Positions 48,409 through 56,696 of a stretch of 64,000 nt of DNA are shown here, one piece after another. Within the stretch, counting starts at the first letter, position 1, and every line of letters begins with the position of its first letter. The position numbers were made by a program, and so were the translations under genes. Source of the DNA: Bacteroidota bacterium (lineage in GTDB: Bacteria > Bacteroidota > Ignavibacteria > UBA10030 > BY39); contig JAUXOG010000104.1 in NCBI GenBank assembly GCA_030682385.1, positions 24,023-88,022 of the forward strand, in the 5' to 3' direction. A model generated the notes under the pieces. The model ran no database searches. It was not told the origin of the DNA and saw nothing but the letters and a program-made list of their open reading frames with translations.

Positions 48409-49140
48409 TTATTTACTTGATGACCATTTATTTAGTGCTATTACGCCGTCAGCCATTTCTGCATAAGAAAAATGCGAAATCCAATCGCCTAAATTAACAT
48501 ACAAACCGTTCCCGATTTTCTGGAAACTCGGTTCGTGCCGGTGCCCCATAATAACGATATCGTAACCTTCCTGAATTTTTCTTTCGGCGGCTTTTTTCAT
48601 TCCGTCGTCTTCACCGAAGTGTTTATTCGAGGAATGTTTACGGCTCGTACGCGAAATTTTTTTTGCCAAAGTAACTCCTAAATCGGGATGGAGCATTCTG
48701 TAAAGTTTAATGTTAATCGGGCTTCTCAGAATTTTTTTTAGAATATTATAACCGTGGTCGTTCAACGTAAAGCCGTCTCCGTGGTGCATAAATATTTTTT
48801 TTCCATCCAGAACAATATCGAATGCGTCGAAGTGAACGCTTATTCCCAAGTCGTCCGTAAAAAAATTGTCCATCCAATAATCGTGGTTGCCTGCAAGGTA
48901 ATGAACTTTTATGTTGTTTCTGACTAACTCGTCGAGTTTTGAAATCGTGCGATGGAATCCCCGTGGTATCACGGTTTTGTATTCAAACCAGGCATCAAAC
49001 AAGTCGCCTAAAATATAGAGCGAATCGGCATCTCTTTTAATATGATCAAAAAACGAGAGCAGAAGCGTTTCTTTTTTTGCCTCTGTCTCTTTGTTCCCCA
49101 ATCCTAAGTGAGCGTCGGAAATGAAATATGCTTTTGGCAT
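48409..49140 (-). CDS. Calcineurin-like metallophosphoesterase, UDP-2,3-diacylglucosamine diphosphatase (LpxH)-like.
   Basis: YFISDAHLG...ILGDLFDAW...GNHD motifs. Confidence 0.65.
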   Translation of the reverse strand: MPKAYFISDAHLGLGNKETEAKKETLLLSFFDHIKRDADSLYILGDLFDAWFEYKTVIPRGFHRTISKLDELVRNNIKVHYLAGNHDYWMDNFFTDDLGISVHFDAFDIVLDGKKIFMHHGDGFTLNDHGYNILKKILRSPINIKLYRMLHPDLGVTLAKKISRTSRKHSSNKHFGEDDGMKKAAERKIQEGYDIVIMGHRHEPSFQKIGNGLYVNLGDWISHFSYAEMADGVIALNKWSSSK

Positions 49141-49142
49141 TC

Positions 49143-49571
49143 TTATTTTTCTACAACAATATTAAGTTGAATTGTTTGTTGAAACCGGCTGCACCATCCT
49201 TCTTCATCTGAACAATAAAAATATGTAAGTGTTCCTTTAAGTTGATGTTTTCCGGGTTTTAGTTTTTTATTCAAGGTAAAACTTTGCTTTACTGGTTTTT
49301 TCAAATTTAAATATTCGCTTCCTTTTGCTTTGGGAACATCGAGTTTACTTAATGCAGCAAATTTTTTATCTATTTCTACTTCAATAGGAGGGTCTAAATT
49401 TATGTGAATGCCTTCTTGCGTGGCGAATGTAAATAAAATTTCAGCATTACCGCCTGCTTTTATCGTTGCCGGTTTTACCGAAGTATATACCTGAACATAT
49501 TCGTTTTCGTCGTCACAGAACAGATATAATGGCAACAATAATAGTATGAAAATTGAGATTAGTTTCTGCAC
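49143..49571 (-). CDS. Small secreted/lipoprotein-like hypothetical protein. GTG start.
   Basis: Signal peptide MQKLISIFILLLLPLYLFC. No recognised domain. Confidence 0.5.
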   Translation of the reverse strand: MQKLISIFILLLLPLYLFCDDENEYVQVYTSVKPATIKAGGNAEILFTFATQEGIHINLDPPIEVEIDKKFAALSKLDVPKAKGSEYLNLKKPVKQSFTLNKKLKPGKHQLKGTLTYFYCSDEEGWCSRFQQTIQLNIVVEK

Positions 49572-49646
49572 ATTAACCTTTGTTTTTAAATAATACTACT
49601 CATTTTTACGAAAATTTAAGGGAAAAAGCAAATAGGCTATTGCTAA
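49570..49646 (-). promoter_or_regulatory. Promoter plus leader of gene 49143-49571, reading on the minus strand as TTGCTT-17nt-TAAAAAT then AAAGGTTAAT-GTG. This is copy 1 of a duplicated roughly 45 bp element.
   Basis: -35/-10-like hexamers with 17 nt spacing, and an RBS-like AAAGG 5 nt upstream of the GTG. A near-identical copy lies at 54688-54738. Confidence 0.45.
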
Positions 49647-49687
49647 TTGTATCTTTTTATATTATATATATAGTGAAAGGAAAAATT

Positions 49688-51949
49688 ATGAAAATTACAA
49701 TTCGTTTAATATTGTCGCTGCTTTTTGTCGCAATATTAGTTGCAGGCGTATTTTCATACTTTCAAATTCGCCTCGAAAGACAAGACCAGATTGAAGAACT
49801 TAATCGCCGCTGTATTTTGTTGGCTGAGAGTCTACAGGAATCCATTAAAAATTTACTTCCCCCTAATTATAAAACAAAGTTAAATCAATTAGTCGAAAAA
49901 TTTGGTAATCGGGAACGCCTTTACGGAATTGTAATATACGATGGTCAAAACGATATTTTAGCTATAACTCCAGGGCTTACAGTTAGAATTCCTGAACATA
50001 TAGCGCAGCTAAAATCTTCATTTGATGAAGACACAACAAAATATTCTGTTGAAACTTTACATAGTAAAGAAATTCATACCTATATCTATCTTATGAAGGA
50101 GGATGGGAAAGTACTCGGGAAGCTGGGGCTTTTTCATGACATTTCATACATTAACACGCGACTCGAAAACATTTGGCGATATAATTTTATTCGGCTTCTG
50201 ACTTTATCACTATTAATTATAGTTACAACAGTATTGGTTGTTCGTTGGAGTATAGTTGGCCCAATAGCTAAGATCGCTGATCGGTTAAAATATTTAAGAA
50301 TGGGTAAAAGCACAAAAAATATTGATATTCCCCAAGGAGATATTTTAGGTCCACTCGCTATCGAAGTAACTCACTTAGCAAAAAGTTTATCGATTGCAAG
50401 AGCAAAAGCTGAAGAGGAAGCCAGGTTAAGAATTATTGGCGAGAAGACGTGGACGGCAGAACGATTAAAAGAACATGTGCGTATGGAACTTGGTGAAAAG
50501 AATTTAATTTTGGTTTCAAATCGAGAACCATATATGCATATTAAAAAAGGTCGAAAAATAGAAAGCATTATCCCGGCAGGAGGTTTGGTTACGGCTTTAG
50601 ACCCGGTGCTTCGTGCTTGCGGAGGAGTGTGGGTAGCACACGGAAGTGGAGATGCCGATGTTGAGACTGCTGATAAAGATGGAAAATTAAAAGTGCCACC
50701 CGAGGAGCCACTATATACACTGAAGCGCGTTTGGTTAAACAAAGAAGAAGAAGAGGGATACTACTATGGATTTTCAAACGAAGGTATTTGGCCCCTTTGC
50801 CACATTACACATACCAGACCTGATTTCAGATTAGAAGATTGGATATATTATCAAAAAGTAAACGAAAAATTTGCTGAAGCTGTTTTAGAAGAAATAAAAA
50901 ATGAAAATGAACCATTAGTTATTATTCAAGATTATCATTTTGCATTATTACCTTTTTTGATAAAATCAAAAAGACCCGATGCTAAGGTTGCAATATTTTG
51001 GCATATCCCTTGGCCCAACCCGGAAGCGTTTAGTATATGTCCGTGGCAGAAGGAAATTTTAGTCGGTTTATTAGGTGCCGATTTGATAGGGTTTCATATC
51101 CAGTTTCACTGCAATAATTTTTTGGAAACTGTTGATAGGGTTTTAGAATCAAAAATTAATTGGGAACAATTTTTTGTAGAAAAAGGCGGTCAAACTACAT
51201 TTGTGAAACCATTTCCGATAAGTGTTGCTTTCCCAAGTCTTCTCGATGCGCAATTCGCTGAATCCAGATCAAACGAATTAATTAAATCGGAAATATTTAA
51301 TGAGTTAGGTATTGCGTCCGAGTATTTAGGTGTCGGAGTAGATAGGATCGATTACACAAAAGGAATCATCGAGCGGTTTAAAGCCATCGAAAGGTTTTTC
51401 GAAAAGCATCCCAATTACATAGGAAAATTTACTTTTGTTGAATTAGGAGCGCCAAGCCGAACTCATATAAAACGTTATCACGATTTAATTGCAGAAGTAG
51501 AAACCACGGTAGAAAAAATATGCTGGAAGTTTCAATCAATAAATTGGAAACCGATTGTTTTTCTTAAAGCACATCATAGTCACCAAGATATCAACCGTTA
51601 TTATAAAGGTTCAGATGTGTGTATGGTTACTTCGTTACACGACGGAATGAATTTGGTGGCTAAAGAATTCGTTTCCGCACGAAATGATGAAGATGGTATT
51701 TTGATTTTAAGCCAGTTTACCGGTGCATCGAGAGAATTACAGGACGCTATCATGGTCAATCCTTATGATATTGAACAAACGGCTGATGCAATATATACTG
51801 CCCTAAATATGAAAGTTGAGGAGAGGAAAGAAAGGATGCAGCATCTCCGCGGTGTAATTAGAGATCGGAATATTTACAGATGGGCTGGAAATTTGATTTC
51901 AACATTAAATCGAATTCGTATTTCAAAAGCTGTCGAAGAACCAGTTTGA
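49688..51949 (+). CDS. otsA: Membrane-anchored sensor-HAMP-trehalose-6-phosphate synthase fusion (GT20 OtsA catalytic domain preceded by TM1, a periplasmic domain, TM2 and HAMP).
   Basis: C-terminal roughly 480 aa carries the OtsA/GT20 pattern (LILVSNREPY...GGLVTAL...). The N-terminal roughly 250 aa has two hydrophobic helices flanking a roughly 145 aa loop, and a HAMP-like amphipathic segment (IVGPIAKIADRLKYLRMGK...). AAAGGA RBS before the ATG at 49688. Confidence 0.75.
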   Translation: MKITIRLILSLLFVAILVAGVFSYFQIRLERQDQIEELNRRCILLAESLQESIKNLLPPNYKTKLNQLVEKFGNRERLYGIVIYDGQNDILAITPGLTVRIPEHIAQLKSSFDEDTTKYSVETLHSKEIHTYIYLMKEDGKVLGKLGLFHDISYINTRLENIWRYNFIRLLTLSLLIIVTTVLVVRWSIVGPIAKIADRLKYLRMGKSTKNIDIPQGDILGPLAIEVTHLAKSLSIARAKAEEEARLRIIGEKTWTAERLKEHVRMELGEKNLILVSNREPYMHIKKGRKIESIIPAGGLVTALDPVLRACGGVWVAHGSGDADVETADKDGKLKVPPEEPLYTLKRVWLNKEEEEGYYYGFSNEGIWPLCHITHTRPDFRLEDWIYYQKVNEKFAEAVLEEIKNENEPLVIIQDYHFALLPFLIKSKRPDAKVAIFWHIPWPNPEAFSICPWQKEILVGLLGADLIGFHIQFHCNNFLETVDRVLESKINWEQFFVEKGGQTTFVKPFPISVAFPSLLDAQFAESRSNELIKSEIFNELGIASEYLGVGVDRIDYTKGIIERFKAIERFFEKHPNYIGKFTFVELGAPSRTHIKRYHDLIAEVETTVEKICWKFQSINWKPIVFLKAHHSHQDINRYYKGSDVCMVTSLHDGMNLVAKEFVSARNDEDGILILSQFTGASRELQDAIMVNPYDIEQTADAIYTALNMKVEERKERMQHLRGVIRDRNIYRWAGNLISTLNRIRISKAVEEPV

Positions 51950-51953
51950 CGAA

Positions 51954-52772
51954 ATGAAACCGAAGTATTTATTCGATAAAAGATATATTGCTTGGAATAC
52001 GCTCCAGATTAAATTGCTCAATTTGAATAGACCTATTTTTATTTTTCTGGACTATGACGGCACAATTGTTCCTATTCAAGAAAAACCTAAACAAGCAATA
52101 CTACCCGAATCCACAAAATTACTGCTCGACTCATTAGCTCATCATCCAAATGCTTATGTCGGGATTGTCAGCGGTAGGTCGATGAAGGATATCAGAAGAA
52201 TGGTAAAACTAACTTCTCTATTTTACATAGCCAATCATGGATATGAAATATATTCCAGAAAAATTAAATGGTCTCATCCGATAGTAACTGATATAGTACC
52301 AATACTGAAAAAACTCCGTACCAATTTTGAAAAGAGTCTTAAAGCAATCCATGGTGTTTTGATTGAAAATAAAATTATAACTTTAAGTATTCATTACCGA
52401 CAATTATCTGGAACTCCCGTTTCTACACTTAAAAAAATAATAAAAAGTAAAATGCAGGAGTATTCGCGTTGCCTGAAAATTTCTTCAGGTAAAAAGGTTT
52501 TTGAAATCAAGCCGAGAATTAATTGGAACAAAGGAAAGGCAATTTTTAAACTGATAGAATTATTTAATGTTACCGCAAAACCGCTCATCGTATATATCGG
52601 AGACGACAGAACAGATGAGGATGCCTTTCGGCTTTTGCCAAAGGAGGCATTTACTATCTATGTTGGTAGCAATTTCTCTTCGAAAGCAAAATATTTATTA
52701 AATCACCCGAATGAAGTTATTTTATTCTTAAAGAAACTGAATCATTCCCTCGTTCTTAGAAAGGAGATGTAA
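51954..52772 (+). CDS. otsB: Trehalose-6-phosphate phosphatase (HAD family).
   Basis: FLDYDGTIVPI HAD motif I and the GDDRTDEDAF motif. Confidence 0.8.
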   Translation: MKPKYLFDKRYIAWNTLQIKLLNLNRPIFIFLDYDGTIVPIQEKPKQAILPESTKLLLDSLAHHPNAYVGIVSGRSMKDIRRMVKLTSLFYIANHGYEIYSRKIKWSHPIVTDIVPILKKLRTNFEKSLKAIHGVLIENKIITLSIHYRQLSGTPVSTLKKIIKSKMQEYSRCLKISSGKKVFEIKPRINWNKGKAIFKLIELFNVTAKPLIVYIGDDRTDEDAFRLLPKEAFTIYVGSNFSSKAKYLLNHPNEVILFLKKLNHSLVLRKEM

Positions 52773-52776
52773 TAGT

Positions 52777-53451
52777 ATGGCTAAAAACGGACCATTTTAT
52801 TTCCATACCCGGCAAAACTTAATATATCTTACCGGAAGAAAAGCAAAAAATTTAAAAGAATTATTGGATGGTATTAAAGAAGCCCCCAGCTCGTCGATAT
52901 ATTATCATACTCATCATTATTTACAGCAGCACGAGTATTTATCACCCGAACCGCCAAACGATTTTGCTTATTGGATAAAAAATGTTTATCAAGAGAACGT
53001 CCTGGCTGAGAGGTTAGCGAGTATGGATTTAAGAACGTTTAATAGATTAAGAGATATTCGCTTGCGGTTAATTGAGATTATTCAAGAAGTGATTAACAGT
53101 GAAGGGTTTGCCGATCGTAACGTACCAAAGGGCATGGAATTTCATTTTATGAAAGCTCAAACATTTATTTTTCCTACAAAAAATCAAGCAAATAATTTAT
53201 TGGAATTTAAAGAGTCTCTGGCTAAGGTTTCGTTAAACTCAATTTATTTTCATATGTTTGAATCCAGACTTAGGCTTGAAAGCGACTTATGCGATTTTTC
53301 AATTTGGTTAAGAGATTCGCTTGGTGAAGATAAATTAGCCAAAGAGTTCAGCTCACTTGACCCGTACACTCACACTCTCGAAAGTTTAAGGTCTAAAATT
53401 ATCAAACTTATCACTAAACGAATCGAGGAGGCTGCAAATGTTAACAATTAG
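52777..53451 (+). CDS. Hypothetical protein (224 aa) within the trehalose module.
   Basis: Intact ORF overlapping the treT start by 14 nt. No motif recognised. Confidence 0.45.
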   Translation: MAKNGPFYFHTRQNLIYLTGRKAKNLKELLDGIKEAPSSSIYYHTHHYLQQHEYLSPEPPNDFAYWIKNVYQENVLAERLASMDLRTFNRLRDIRLRLIEIIQEVINSEGFADRNVPKGMEFHFMKAQTFIFPTKNQANNLLEFKESLAKVSLNSIYFHMFESRLRLESDLCDFSIWLRDSLGEDKLAKEFSSLDPYTHTLESLRSKIIKLITKRIEEAANVNN

Positions 53452-54658
53452 AGATTACGAACCGGTTGTTGGTGCTGATGTTATAGATGAGCTTGAGCTT
53501 TTTGCGGGCAGATTATCAGGTAAGGTCATACAGAACATAAATTCGACCGCAGTAGGAGGTGGTGTTGCAGAAATTTTAATTCGTATGATTCCGCTTCTGA
53601 AAGACATCGGCGTTGACGCCCGCTGGGATGTGATAAAAGGCGACGAGAAATTCTTCCAAGTTACCAAAAAAATGCACAATGCCTTACACGGCAGCAAGGT
53701 GAATTTTTCTAAAGAAGAAATAGAAATATTTATAGAAACAAATAAAATGAATGCGGCTAGTATGGATTTGATGGGAGATATTATGTTTATCCACGACCCG
53801 CAGCCGATTGGTCTCGTGGAAAAAAAGGTTAAAGACCAAAAGTGGATATGGAGGTGCCATATTGATTTTTCGAGACCGGACGAATTCACTTGGAATTTTC
53901 TGAAAAATTATATAGAGAAATACAACATTAGTATTTTTTCTGCTCCATCGTTTGCTCGTCAACTTGTAATCCCCCAAGTTTTGATATCCCCATCAATTGA
54001 CCCGCTGAGCGATAAGAATCGAGACTTACCGCGGGAGACAATAGACCGTGTGCTAGAGCAATTTAATATTGATAAAAACCGGCCTATCGTTACACAGATA
54101 TCACGCTTCGATTATCTCAAAGACCCGGTGGGAGTTGTAAAGGCTTATCACCAAGTTAAAAAGTATATAGATTGTCAACTCGTACTCGCCGGTGGCGGTG
54201 CTACAGATGATCCTGAGGGTGAAAAAGTACTCGCCGAAGTTCAAGAAGCTGTGGGGGTTGATAAAGATATTTTTCTATTATTACTTCCACCGGCAAGCGA
54301 TATTGAAATAAATGCTTTACAGCGAGCATCTACTGTGGTATTGCAAAAATCACTCCGCGAGGGTTTTGGATTAACAGTTGCCGAAGCGCTCTGGAAATCA
54401 AAACCGGTAATTGCTGGGGCTGTAGGTGGTATCCCTTTACAGATCACTAACAAGTACTCAGGTTTATTGACTAATACAATTGAAGGTACTGCTTTTGCGC
54501 TAAAACAATTACTGCAGAATCCAGATTATGCTAAACGCTTAGGTGAAAATGGACACGAGCATATAAAGAAAAATTATTTAATTACCCGGCATCTTAAAGA
54601 TTATCTATTGTTGTTTCTTTCGCTAGATCATCAGGGTGAGAATATAGTTAATTTATAG
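53438..54658 (+). CDS. treT: Trehalose glycosyltransferring synthase (TreT, GT4).
   Basis: NSTAVGGGVAEIL, WRCHID, SPSIDPLS, ITQISRFD, DDPEG, QKSLREGFGLTV motifs closely match archaeal/thermophile TreT. Confidence 0.8.
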   Translation: MLTIRDYEPVVGADVIDELELFAGRLSGKVIQNINSTAVGGGVAEILIRMIPLLKDIGVDARWDVIKGDEKFFQVTKKMHNALHGSKVNFSKEEIEIFIETNKMNAASMDLMGDIMFIHDPQPIGLVEKKVKDQKWIWRCHIDFSRPDEFTWNFLKNYIEKYNISIFSAPSFARQLVIPQVLISPSIDPLSDKNRDLPRETIDRVLEQFNIDKNRPIVTQISRFDYLKDPVGVVKAYHQVKKYIDCQLVLAGGGATDDPEGEKVLAEVQEAVGVDKDIFLLLLPPASDIEINALQRASTVVLQKSLREGFGLTVAEALWKSKPVIAGAVGGIPLQITNKYSGLLTNTIEGTAFALKQLLQNPDYAKRLGENGHEHIKKNYLITRHLKDYLLLFLSLDHQGENIVNL

Positions 54659-54932: not shown

Positions 54933-55772
54933 CTAATGTTGCAAAACCAATGTTGGTGGCTGTGCTTTATCAAACTTTAATTTCGGTTGTATTTCGATTA
55001 GGCGAACTCGTTCTCTCGCAATTTTACAATACTCGTGGCTGATGTCAATACCAATGTAATTTCTATGCATTTCACAGGCTACTCTTGGCGTTGTTCCGCT
55101 GCCACACATTGGGTCAAGAACAACGTCACCGGAATTTGTCCAAGAGAAAATATGGTCTCTCACAAGTTCGCAAGGAAATGGTGCTGGGTGTCCTTTCGCT
55201 TCTTGGTCTTCTTGTCTTTTGCCGACGACATATTCCCAAATATTGCCTTTAATTTTTTTATCTTTTACTGGCTTTGCTAATTTCTCTCTTGTCTGCTCGT
55301 TCTTTGAATAGTTTTTGTAGGTTGTGCCGTTGAGTTCTAAACCTGCGTGCATACAGTCAACTAAGATTGGGTTATGTGTCTTAACTACGCCCTTGCTGAA
55401 TACGAACATATACTCAAACTCATTGGTGTATCTCTTGCGATAGATTTGAGGGATTGGATTTTTCTTTCTGAAAATCATTGTGTCGTGTAGATTGAACCCA
55501 ATTTCCTTAAAATACATAGCTTGCTTAAAACTTGTTCCAGTTTCCGTAGCGTCAATTGTTGCATCAGCAACAACCCAAACCACCACACCGCCTAGTTTTG
55601 TAATGCGGAATAATTCTTTTACTATGTCTTCAAATGGGAAAATATAGCCCTTATAGTTTCTTAAATCATCGTAAGGTGGTGAGGTAACAGTCAAGTCAAT
55701 TACGTCATCTTGAAATTTTTTCATTACTTCAACGCAATTACCTTCAATGATTTTGTTTATATATTTTTCCAT
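54933..55772 (-). CDS. Beta-class DNA amino-methyltransferase (N6-adenine or N4-cytosine), the partner of the adjacent restriction enzyme.
   Basis: LTVTSPPYDD (motif IV) after DPMCGSGTT (motif I), in the circularly permuted beta order. Confidence 0.8.
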   Translation of the reverse strand: MEKYINKIIEGNCVEVMKKFQDDVIDLTVTSPPYDDLRNYKGYIFPFEDIVKELFRITKLGGVVVWVVADATIDATETGTSFKQAMYFKEIGFNLHDTMIFRKKNPIPQIYRKRYTNEFEYMFVFSKGVVKTHNPILVDCMHAGLELNGTTYKNYSKNEQTREKLAKPVKDKKIKGNIWEYVVGKRQEDQEAKGHPAPFPCELVRDHIFSWTNSGDVVLDPMCGSGTTPRVACEMHRNYIGIDISHEYCKIARERVRLIEIQPKLKFDKAQPPTLVLQH

Positions 55773-55781
55773 ATTTTTAAG

Positions 55782-56696
55782 CTATATTATTGAGAATAAA
55801 CCATTGTCTGAAATCGCTTTAATTGTTTTAATCTTGCTTTCAATTTTGTGAACTTTAATAAGTTCTTTCAGAGCTTCTTGATGGCTCATTCGCATAATCT
55901 TTTCCCGTTCTTGTGCTAAAAAAGTCAGGGCTTCTTCCTTTGCAATGTTTATTGATTCTGTAGCTGCTTGTTTTTCAATACCCCAGAGATTTTCGATTTT
56001 TTTTGAAAATGTCAGCATAGCCTTGTTTACTGCTAACCAATAGTCGTTAGCGTTTTTAGAAGGATTGATGGCGGGAACAGTTTGAAAAATTGTTTTTAGC
56101 AGTTGTTGGGCTTTTGCTTTGCTTTCAACTTCTGAAAATGCCAAGAGTAAAGCGAGGTGTGAGTATGTAAAAACACAAACATTATAAGTAGTCGCTTGCT
56201 GATAGATTTGGCTTGAAGTGTTTGGAAGTTGATAAATTGGGCATACAACCATTGCATAGGGTTTGCCTCGTTTCCAACCGCCCATTGCCTGAACTTTAAA
56301 GTCCTTCTGGTTTTTAGCTGTTCTGCTAAGTCGGAAAGATTTAGCGTCTGCAACAAGACTGTAATCTTTAGCAAATGCTTCAACGTCTGCTGCATCGGCT
56401 CTTTCTTTCAGCACCAAACTTTTAAGCCCTAATGCTTTATAGGATAAAGAAAGTAAAGCGTCTGTGTATTTAGAGTAAAGTTTTTCTTCGCTTGTGTCGT
56501 GCCCATAAGATTCTGGTATATTACCGCAAAGTCTTAAATGGTCAATAAGTGCGGCTATTCCCGATTTTTTTATTTCTGCTTCTAATTCTTTTTCTAAACG
56601 GTCAGAGTCGTTACTGAAATTTCCGCTTAGTTTACGGATTTCGTCAACCCAATAAGCTCGCCTTTTTCCTGCTTTGTCCGATATAATATTTTTCAT
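55782..56696 (-). CDS. HindIII-family type II restriction endonuclease.
   Basis: LVADAKSFRLSRTAKNQKDFKV block, and the following Y/PxxQ...SQI region, closely resemble R.HindIII as I recall it. 304 aa (R.HindIII is about 300 aa). Confidence 0.6.
   Translation of the reverse strand: MKNIISDKAGKRRAYWVDEIRKLSGNFSNDSDRLEKELEAEIKKSGIAALIDHLRLCGNIPESYGHDTSEEKLYSKYTDALLSLSYKALGLKSLVLKERADAADVEAFAKDYSLVADAKSFRLSRTAKNQKDFKVQAMGGWKRGKPYAMVVCPIYQLPNTSSQIYQQATTYNVCVFTYSHLALLLAFSEVESKAKAQQLLKTIFQTVPAINPSKNANDYWLAVNKAMLTFSKKIENLWGIEKQAATESINIAKEEALTFLAQEREKIMRMSHQEALKELIKVHKIESKIKTIKAISDNGLFSII

What the first reader, a model, noticed from the sequence alone, without database searches (positions are those of the whole stretch)
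49688..50420. Trehalose-6-phosphate synthase fused to a transmembrane sensor and HAMP domain.
The OtsA (GT20) catalytic domain begins around residue 250 of the 754 aa protein. It is preceded by TM1 (LILSLLFVAILVAGVF), a roughly 145 aa extracytoplasmic segment, TM2 (FIRLLTLSLLIIVTTVLVV) and a HAMP-like linker. This is the architecture of a signal-transduction receptor whose output is an enzyme. It implies direct, post-translational control of compatible-solute synthesis by an envelope or osmotic signal rather than transcriptional control. I am not aware of this fusion having been characterised.
Basis: partly seen in the sequence, partly recalled or inferred. Interest (0 to 1): 0.6.

Follow-up and report, generated by a model that had tools for sequence, protein, structure and literature searches.

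The report
Membrane receptor fused to trehalose-phosphate synthase
One gene encodes a trehalose-6-phosphate synthase joined to a membrane-spanning sensor of the kind normally found on bacterial signalling kinases, and this uncharacterised fusion occurs in hundreds of uncultured soil and sediment bacteria, suggesting the cell surface directly controls synthesis of a stress-protectant sugar.

Summary
Window 49688-51949 (+) is one 753-aa ORF with five parts:
- TM1 (aa 7-25)
- a ~140-aa extracytoplasmic domain
- TM2 (aa 166-186)
- a HAMP-like helix-connector-helix (aa 187-240), followed by an unusually conserved linker (AEEEARLR...WTAERL, aa 241-272)
- a complete GT20/OtsA domain (aa 273-742) in which the motifs I map (from memory) to the E. 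coli OtsA catalytic and glucose-6-phosphate residues are invariant

The fusion is not an artefact. 70 of the 80 best species-level loci carry it in one ORF, and at least 222 genomes across about nine phyla encode it. All 80 loci fetched are MAGs or SAGs. It usually sits in an otsA-otsB(-orfY/DUF5752-treT) cluster.

No paper in the searchable library describes it, and databases call it plain "trehalose-6-phosphate synthase".

Regulation of the enzyme by an outside signal is inferred, not shown, and the signal is unknown. Verdict: a new output variant of a known receptor design. Interest is moderate to high.

The parts
49688..51949 (+). Whole gene: receptor-type trehalose-6-phosphate synthase, 753 aa plus stop
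   Evidence: Full-length homologues are 62-95% identical over 99-100% of the length.
49706..49762 (+). TM1 (aa 7-25). It continues as one helix into the sensor's long N-terminal helix.
   Evidence: Hydropathy peak 2.6. AF2 predicts a helix over aa 2-54.
49763..50182 (+). Extracytoplasmic single Cache/PDC-like sensor domain (aa 26-165), WalK-like. Family-conserved motifs are LAESLQE, FGNRERLxG and FHDxSYI.
50183..50245 (+). TM2 (aa 166-186)
   Evidence: Hydropathy peak 2.55. Part of the continuous helix aa 153-204.
50246..50407 (+). HAMP-like segment (aa 187-240): AS1 187-204 with P192, connector 205-220 starting at G206, AS2 from 221 with E226
   Evidence: Secondary structure. Heptad hydrophobic positions 190/193/197/200/204 and 220/223/227/230/234. 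P192 and E226 are invariant and G206 is >=90% conserved. There is a gapless 68-aa alignment to Tsr TM2-HAMP, E 0.05. Pfam HAMP hits only 4 of 59 relatives.
50408..50503 (+). Conserved coupling linker (aa 241-272): AEEEARLR helix extension, break at W255-T256, short helix 257-268 (AERLKEHVRMEL) leading into the first beta-strand of GT20
   Evidence: 60% mean pairwise identity, against 41% for the sensor and 45% for the HAMP-like segment. A241, E243, E244, A245, R246, L247, R248, W255, T256 and L260 are invariant in A2, and W255 also in A3. Solved OtsA structures align only from about aa 267.
50504..51913 (+). GT20 / OtsA catalytic domain (aa 273-742)
   Evidence: Pfam PF00982 E 2e-117. Best solved relative is M. 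thermoresistibile OtsA 5jij, E 1.6e-75. The SNR, GGL, DYH, HIPWP, RxDYxKG, PSR and DGMNLVAKE motifs are invariant.
51954..52772 (+). otsB, trehalose-6-phosphate phosphatase, starting 5 nt after the otsA stop
   Evidence: Pfam Trehalose_PPase E 8e-45. TIGR00685 scores 154 bits against a cut-off of 68. It lies on the same strand (directly downstream in nearly all) in 45 of 63 related loci that have enough flank.
52777..53451 (+). DUF5752 / OrfY-like protein, the usual companion of treT
   Evidence: Pfam DUF5752 E 1e-66. PDB 4cso 'OrfY protein, transcription factor' E 6e-20. Present in 28 of 63 loci.
53438..54658 (+). treT, trehalose glycosyltransferring synthase (GT4), overlapping the previous gene by 14 nt
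   Evidence: Pfam TreT_GT1 E 3e-56. PDB 6zj4 E 2e-125 and 2x6q E 2e-101. Present in 30 of 63 loci.

Best explanation
The gene encodes a one-component transmembrane receptor whose output is an enzyme.

Shown: a WalK-like single Cache/PDC domain faces the periplasm between two membrane helices. TM2 runs into a HAMP-like helix-connector-helix. A highly conserved helical linker joins that segment to a cytoplasmic OtsA domain that appears catalytically complete.

Inferred: the protein works as a membrane-anchored homodimer. A change in the outer domain or in the membrane is passed through TM2 and the HAMP-like bundle into the AEEEARLR stalk and the WTAERL helix. That movement changes the activity of the GT20 domain, most simply by altering how the two catalytic domains pack or how their two Rossmann lobes close. 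Trehalose-6-phosphate synthesis is thereby switched on or off within seconds, without new transcription.

OtsB, encoded immediately downstream, finishes the pathway. In many genomes an OrfY-TreT pair in the same cluster supplies a second, presumably unregulated, route.

The signal is unknown. Water or osmotic stress, or the state of the envelope, is the most natural guess given what trehalose does and the soil and sediment hosts. A specific periplasmic ligand is equally compatible with a Cache fold.
For: - HAMP-like features: helix-connector-helix directly after TM2, heptad pattern, conserved P192, G206 and E226, and weak model hits in relatives.
- Coupling: the linker between the HAMP-like segment and GT20 is more conserved (60% pairwise) than the sensor (41%) or the HAMP-like segment (45%), and contains an invariant AEEEARLR plus W255-T256. 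This is expected if it transmits a signal, and not if it is a passive tether.
- Selection: the whole N-terminal module is retained in frame in 70 of 80 species-level loci from about nine phyla and in 810 50%-identity clusters.
- Partner exclusivity: relatives of the module long enough to show a partner carry GT20. That is 7 of 9 tested, plus P0121, P0280 and P0333 and the 38 homologues aligned in A3.
- Enzyme competence: the OtsA motifs are invariant, the domain is strongly similar to solved OtsAs, and otsB is adjacent.
- Self-contained: no other conserved neighbour, such as a response regulator or a YycH/I-like partner, was found.
- Precedent: TPS activity is controlled post-translationally by protein-protein contacts in a prokaryote, the T. 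tenax TPSP-GT complex encoded with a mechanosensitive channel (PMC3634074).
Against: - No experiment or computation here shows that activity depends on the N-terminal module.
- The Pfam HAMP and Cache models do not hit this protein itself, and a HAMP-only family profile finds no HAMP structure.
- Only monomer models could be made, so the dimeric four-helix bundle and the geometry of the output are assumed.
- To my knowledge no GT-B glycosyltransferase is known to be controlled by a HAMP or coiled-coil input, so the last step has no precedent.
- WalK's own Cache domain is not known to bind a small ligand, so fold similarity says little about the signal.
- All 80 loci fetched are MAGs or SAGs, so there is no physiology to lean on.
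Confidence: 0.55

Rival explanations
1. The module is a membrane anchor or scaffold only. It places and dimerises OtsA at the inner face of the membrane, for example near glucose-6-phosphate supply, a trehalose exporter, or membrane lipids that need protection. It does not transmit any signal. The Cache and HAMP-like parts are relics of the kinase the module was taken from.
For: The sensor domain is the least conserved part (41% pairwise). HAMP and Cache sequence models barely recognise it. No ligand or partner is indicated.
Against: A simple anchor needs one helix, not a 140-aa folded periplasmic domain kept across about nine phyla with invariant motifs (FGNRERL, HDxSYI, P135, G144). The HAMP landmarks P192, G206 and E226, the heptad pattern and the nearly invariant linker are all under strong constraint. 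Some lineages have even duplicated the sensor module, which makes sense for sensing but not for anchoring.
Confidence: 0.2
2. The GT20 domain does not make trehalose-6-phosphate. It makes another sugar phosphate, such as glucosylglycerol-phosphate, or is a non-catalytic sugar-phosphate-binding domain. In that case the receptor controls or reports something other than trehalose synthesis.
For: Scores against the NCBIfam equivalog models are below their cut-offs: OtsA TIGR02400 420 against 565, PRK14501 482 against 634, GgpS 302 against 569. Strict family assignment by those models therefore fails.
Against: OtsA models score far better than GgpS. The best solved relatives are all trehalose-6-phosphate synthases. 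The donor, acceptor and catalytic motifs of E. coli OtsA are invariant in the family (mapping from memory of Gibson et al. 2002). A bona fide T6P phosphatase gene follows directly in 45 of 63 loci, and TreT in 30 of 63.
Confidence: 0.07
3. The fusion is an artefact. Two adjacent genes, a small membrane sensor and otsA, have been joined by a sequencing or assembly frameshift.
For: Many database entries for the N-terminal part are short (200-460 aa), and a few long-contig entries stop early.
Against: Those short entries are contig-end fragments or frameshifted copies whose sequence continues into GT20. The window ORF is uninterrupted. 120 of the 120 best full-length hits are about 750 aa or longer variants. 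70 of 80 independent genome loci have one ORF. The junction (aa 241-272) is the best-conserved part of the N-terminal half.
Confidence: 0.01

Closest known systems
WalK (YycG) sensor histidine kinase, N-terminal input module (S. aureus / B. subtilis; PDB 4ywz, 5is1, 7dud, model 9a5d)
   Different: There is no PAS, DHp or ATPase kinase core and no response regulator. The output is a GT20 glycosyltransferase. Sequence identity is only about 15-17%. No YycH/YycI-like partner genes are nearby.
Canonical soluble OtsA (E. coli 1gz5/1uqt; Mycolicibacterium thermoresistibile 5jij)
   Same: Full-length GT20 domain, E 1.6e-75 to 5jij and 7e-63 to E. coli OtsA. The catalytic and substrate motifs are conserved. 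It is paired with otsB.
   Different: It has 272 extra N-terminal residues that put the enzyme in the membrane behind a sensor. Known OtsAs are cytosolic and are controlled by transcription and by soluble effectors (own knowledge). Scores are below the NCBIfam OtsA equivalog cut-off.
HAMP-coupled receptor enzymes (own knowledge: mycobacterial HAMP adenylyl cyclase Rv3645, Cache/HAMP diguanylate cyclases, HAMP-PP2C phosphatases)
   Same: Same design logic: an extracytoplasmic sensor, TM2, a HAMP-type converter and a helical stalk leading to a cytoplasmic catalytic domain that works as a dimer.
   Different: Those outputs make or destroy signalling molecules or phosphorylation states. Here the output is a metabolic enzyme that makes the end product's precursor itself, and it has a GT-B fold with no known coiled-coil-driven regulation.
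Thermoproteus tenax TPSP-GT-MSC trehalose synthase complex (PMC3634074)
   Same: It is a prokaryotic example of post-translational control of trehalose-6-phosphate synthase activity linked genetically to a membrane protein that responds to osmotic state. A TreT route coexists in the same organism.
   Different: There the control is by a separate GT4 protein binding a TPS-TPP fusion, and the membrane protein is a separate mechanosensitive channel. Here sensor and synthase are one polypeptide, and TPP is a separate gene.

Membership tests
GT20 / trehalose-6-phosphate synthase (OtsA) | Matches the Pfam Glyco_transf_20 model above its gathering score over its full length | tested here: met
   393 bits against 32.5, profile positions 2-472 of 473.
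GT20 / trehalose-6-phosphate synthase (OtsA) | Reaches the NCBIfam OtsA equivalog cut-off (TIGR02400 / PRK14501) | tested here: not met
   420 bits against 564.85, and 482 against 634. OtsA models are still the best-scoring GT20 subfamily, ahead of GgpS at 302.
GT20 / trehalose-6-phosphate synthase (OtsA) | Catalytic and substrate-binding residues of E. coli OtsA (R9, G22, W40, Y76, W85, D130, H154, R262, K267, R300, D361, E369) | tested here: met
   R279, G299, W315, Y359, W368, D415, H439, R553, K558, R591, D652 and E660 are all invariant in 39 full-length homologues. The residue mapping is by motif, from memory of the E. coli structure papers.
GT20 / trehalose-6-phosphate synthase (OtsA) | Genomic pairing with trehalose-6-phosphate phosphatase | tested here: met
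   otsB starts 5 nt downstream. TIGR00685 scores 154 bits against a cut-off of 68. Present in 45 of 63 related loci.
GT20 / trehalose-6-phosphate synthase (OtsA) | Forms trehalose-6-phosphate from NDP-glucose and glucose-6-phosphate | not testable with these tools
   Needs an enzyme assay.
Cache / PDC extracytoplasmic sensor domain | Lies between two transmembrane helices on the outer side | tested here: met
   TM1 is aa 7-25 and TM2 is aa 166-186. Positive residues K2 and R6 precede TM1, and R186, K195, R199, K201 and R204 follow TM2 (sequence).
Cache / PDC extracytoplasmic sensor domain | Long N-terminal helix followed by a PAS-like alpha/beta core with an antiparallel sheet and a C-terminal helix into TM2 | tested here: met
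Cache / PDC extracytoplasmic sensor domain | Recognised by a Pfam Cache model | tested here: inconclusive
   No Cache hit for the window protein even at E<=10. Among 59 family members, 19 hit sCache_3_2 (best 1e-7), 15 dCache_1, 10 dCache_3 and 5 Cache_WalK.
HAMP domain | About 50 residues directly after the last TM helix, forming helix AS1, a ~14-residue connector and helix AS2 | tested here: met
   The helix through TM2 ends at 204, the connector is 205-220, and a helix starts at 221.
HAMP domain | Heptad (a/d) hydrophobic pattern in both helices. Conserved Pro early in AS1, Gly at the start of the connector, acidic residue at the start of AS2. | tested here: met
   Hydrophobic positions are 190/193/197/200/204 and 220/223/227/230/234. 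P192 and E226 are invariant, G206 is >=90% conserved, and D218 is common. P192 and G206 align with the Pro and the GG of Tsr HAMP in a gapless alignment.
HAMP domain | Recognised by the Pfam HAMP model (PF00672) at its gathering score | tested here: not met
   No hit for the window protein. 4 of 59 relatives hit at E<=0.1, best 1.7e-4. P0121 scores 19.7 bits against a cut-off of 25. A HAMP-only family profile finds no HAMP chain in the PDB. Hence 'HAMP-like'.
HAMP domain | Parallel four-helix bundle in a homodimer | not testable with these tools
   Only monomer prediction is available.
Two-component sensor histidine kinase (WalK type) | DHp (HisKA) and HATPase_c kinase core | tested here: not met
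   No such domains were found. The C-terminal 480 aa are GT20. The protein shares the kinase's input half only.

The most novel reading that the evidence does not exclude
This is a previously undescribed class of transmembrane receptor in which a Cache sensor and a HAMP-like converter allosterically drive a GT-B glycosyltransferase. A bacterium would then set its rate of compatible-solute (trehalose) synthesis directly from a signal sensed outside the cytoplasm, with no kinase, second messenger or transcription step. It would also be the first case of HAMP or coiled-coil control of a glycosyltransferase, and a widespread desiccation or osmotic response device in uncultured soil phyla (Acidobacteriota, Nitrospirota, Methylomirabilota, Ignavibacteriota).
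Probability: 0.5. Interest if true: 0.75.

Novelty: new variant of a known kind. Interest (0 to 1): 0.6.

Why it matters
How bacteria sense water or osmotic stress and turn it quickly into compatible-solute synthesis is known mainly at the level of transcription and ion-activated transporters. A receptor whose output is itself the committed enzyme of trehalose synthesis would be a direct, testable sensor-to-metabolism link.

It would extend the list of outputs that HAMP-type converters can drive to a GT-B glycosyltransferase.

It is common in abundant but uncultured soil and sediment lineages, where trehalose is a likely desiccation protectant.

It also offers a simple modular system, with one polypeptide and an easy product assay, for studying transmembrane signalling.

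Tried and rejected
- Pfam scan of the N-terminal 272 aa at E<=10 gave no HAMP or Cache hit, only noise.
- The HAMP-only family profile (A4) against PDB sequences returned only coiled-coil noise. The weak Tsr hit of the longer profile (E 0.05) therefore partly rests on TM2.
A 14-sequence alignment worked.
- The AlphaFold-database fold search, wanted to find cultured hosts, was not available.
- The promoter and terminator scan gave counts no better than shuffles: 19 against 20.1 and 3 against 4.3. It says nothing about the operon, and these phyla use other promoter types.
- All-against-all clustering of neighbouring ORFs in 80 loci found no conserved partner beyond otsB and orfY-treT. The other large clusters are antisense shadow ORFs of the GT20 gene.
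- Cluster look-ups for diverged full-length members found only metagenome or MAG sources and no isolate.
- Ten literature searches found no paper on the fusion or on DUF5752. One candidate, PMC9386147, mentions only ordinary OtsAB.
- Rfam and tRNA scans of the whole window were empty.
- The upstream TTG start at 49580 was considered and rejected, because the 36 extra residues are absent from homologues.
- Numbering caveat: searches used a translation starting one codon early, so their residue numbers are +1.
Full report
**1. What is in the sequence**

The ORF listed at 49580-51949 (+) contains an ATG at 49688 preceded by a purine-rich GAAAGGAAAA. Homologues from many phyla begin at the equivalent MK(R)IT residues. 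The gene is therefore 49688-51949 and the protein is 753 aa.

A 19-residue hydropathy scan finds only two hydrophobic segments in the whole protein, centred on aa 7-25 and aa 166-186.

Pfam places a full-length Glyco_transf_20 domain at aa 272-741 (E 2e-117; searches used a translation one residue longer).

**2. The outer domain is a WalK-like Cache/PDC sensor**

Pfam models do not recognise the N-terminal 271 aa of this protein. The NCBIfam WalK model does match aa 3-247 (E 2e-10).

A profile of 59 family members (A1) hits the crystal structures of the WalK ectodomain (5is1, E 3e-4). Of those 59 members, 19 hit sCache_3_2 and others hit dCache_1, dCache_3 or Cache_WalK.

An AlphaFold2 model of aa 1-271 (pLDDT 82.7) shows these elements in order:
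- a long helix, aa 2-54, comprising TM1 and the first sensor helix
- a PAS-like alpha/beta core
- a helix, aa 153-204, running through TM2

**3. The segment after TM2 is HAMP-like**

The evidence in favour:
- The model has AS1 up to residue 204, a 16-residue connector, and a helix from residue 221.
- Across 71 full-length sequences, large hydrophobic residues recur at 190/193/197/200/204 and at 220/223/227/230/234, a clean a/d heptad pattern.
- P192 and E226 are invariant and G206 is nearly so.
- In a gapless 68-residue alignment with Tsr TM2-HAMP, P192 and G206 fall on the Tsr Pro and GG (E 0.05).

The evidence against:
- The Pfam HAMP model misses this protein.
- It reaches only 4 of 59 relatives (best E 1.7e-4), and P0121 at 19.7 bits.
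- A HAMP-only family profile finds no HAMP chain in the PDB.

I therefore call it HAMP-like. It meets the structural definition but fails the sequence-model test.

**4. The linker**

AS2 continues to about residue 251 through an invariant AEEEARLR. It breaks at W255-T256, and a short helix (aa 257-268) leads into the first strand of GT20. Solved OtsAs align only from about residue 267, so this linker is specific to the fusion.

Mean pairwise identity by region:

| Region | Pairwise identity |
|---|---|
| Sensor | 41% |
| HAMP-like segment | 45% |
| Linker | 60% |
| GT20 | 67% |

A junction more conserved than either input domain is what a signal-transmitting element would show.

**5. The enzyme**

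The best solved relatives are trehalose-6-phosphate synthases: 5jij at E 1.6e-75, fungal Tps1, and E. coli OtsA at E 7e-63. The motifs that carry the E. coli OtsA catalytic, UDP-glucose and glucose-6-phosphate residues are invariant in 39 full-length homologues. That mapping is from my memory of the E. coli structures.

Scores are below the NCBIfam equivalog cut-offs. OtsA models nevertheless clearly beat GgpS.

**6. Context**

otsB starts 5 nt after the stop, and TIGR00685 scores above its cut-off. Next come a DUF5752 protein that matches PDB 4cso 'OrfY' (E 6e-20) and a true TreT (6zj4, E 2e-125), which overlaps DUF5752 by 14 nt. The four genes therefore form a tight trehalose-synthesis cluster with two routes.

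**7. Distribution**

The N-terminal module alone finds 810 clusters at 50% identity (355 at E<=1e-10). The full-length query finds about 750-aa proteins at 62-95% identity and 99-100% coverage. Those that carry a name are called 'trehalose-6-phosphate synthase', and the named source organisms are:
- Bacteroidota and Ignavibacteriae
- Nitrospirota and Thermodesulfovibrionia
- Acidobacteriota

The best 80 also include:
- Methylomirabilota
- 'Deltaproteobacteria'
- Gemmatimonadota
- Omnitrophota
- Elusimicrobiota
- Edwardsbacteria

All 80 are MAGs or SAGs. The window is 96% identical to an uncultured Ignavibacteriae MAG.

Of the 80 loci:
- 70 have sensor and GT20 in one ORF
- 6 are cut by contig ends
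- 4 have a stop or frameshift

Of the 63 loci with at least 3.5 kb downstream:
- 45 have otsB
- 28 have DUF5752
- 30 have TreT

No other neighbour is conserved. Relatives of the module long enough to reveal a partner carry GT20. Variants of 913-931 aa carry two sensor modules in tandem.

**8. Mechanism**

Shown:
- the topology, with the sensor outside and the enzyme inside
- the receptor-type input module
- the conserved coupling linker
- the conserved catalytic motifs of the enzyme (activity itself was not tested)
- the adjacent phosphatase gene

Inferred:
- the protein forms a homodimer
- a signal is transmitted through TM2, the HAMP-like segment and the stalk to the catalytic domain
- this gives rapid post-translational control of trehalose-6-phosphate synthesis

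The identity of the signal (osmotic or desiccation stress, envelope state, or a ligand) is open. The main rival is an anchor-only role. The retained periplasmic fold, the HAMP landmarks and the linker conservation argue against it, but it is not excluded.

**9. Comparison with what is known**

The input half works like, and is distantly related to, that of WalK-type kinases. The protein is not a kinase.

The output half is an OtsA by fold, motifs and context, but known OtsAs are soluble.

Receptor enzymes with HAMP are known (cyclases, diguanylate cyclases, phosphatases). To my knowledge, none has a glycosyltransferase output.

The nearest functional precedent for post-translational control of a prokaryotic TPS is the T. 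tenax TPSP-GT complex, which is encoded with a mechanosensitive channel (PMC3634074).

Ten full-text searches found no description of the fusion.

**10. Verdict**

The feature is real and widespread, and no characterisation was found. I rate it a new variant of a known kind, with interest 0.6.

Noticed in passing
window 52777-54658 (+): A DUF5752 protein lies directly after otsB. It matches PDB 4cso, 'OrfY protein, transcription factor' (E 6e-20). A bona fide TreT follows (6zj4, E 2e-125). One operon-like cluster therefore carries both the OtsAB and the TreT routes to trehalose. The OrfY-TreT pair accompanies the sensor-otsA gene in about 28-30 of 63 related loci, sometimes upstream instead of downstream. 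No paper in the library mentions DUF5752.
   Followed up: partly
window 54933-56696 (-): A type II restriction-modification pair lies immediately downstream of the trehalose cluster. It consists of a HindIII-family endonuclease (Pfam RE_HindIII, E 8e-116) and an N6/N4 DNA methylase (E 2e-44).
   Followed up: no
P0121, P0280, P0302, P0333 (913-931 aa relatives): Longer relatives of the fused protein exist. In P0121 the N-terminal query matches in two stretches, and in P0280 sensor-type Pfam hits (SMP_2 at aa 4-93, Cache_WalK at aa 233-324) fall in two separate regions ahead of GT20. Both point to a duplicated sensor; P0302 and P0333 were not examined in this respect. P0121 also gives one of the clearest Pfam HAMP hits in the family (E 1e-3).
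   Followed up: partly
L028 8631-8633; L016 about 1100-1176; L039: A few relatives are interrupted. An Elusimicrobiota single-cell genome has an in-frame TAG in the HAMP connector. A Nitrospiraceae MAG has an AT-rich ~75-nt stretch splitting the GT20 part. One Acidobacteriota MAG has several frameshifts. These may be sequencing errors or decaying copies.
   Followed up: partly
window 50371-50742 (-): A 123-aa antisense ORF lies inside the GT20 coding region and recurs in 52 related loci. It is conserved only because it shadows the conserved sense-strand gene, so it is not a gene.
   Followed up: yes
window 49143-49571 (-) and 48409-49140 (-): Two genes are transcribed divergently from the sensor-otsA gene. 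One is a small protein with an N-terminal hydrophobic leader (read from the translation, not tested) and a weak DsbD_N-like match (E 1e-3). The other is a calcineurin-like metallophosphoesterase. Neither is a conserved neighbour in related loci.
   Followed up: partly
window 1-64000: No tRNA gene and no Rfam family at gathering score was found anywhere in the 64-kb window.
   Followed up: yes
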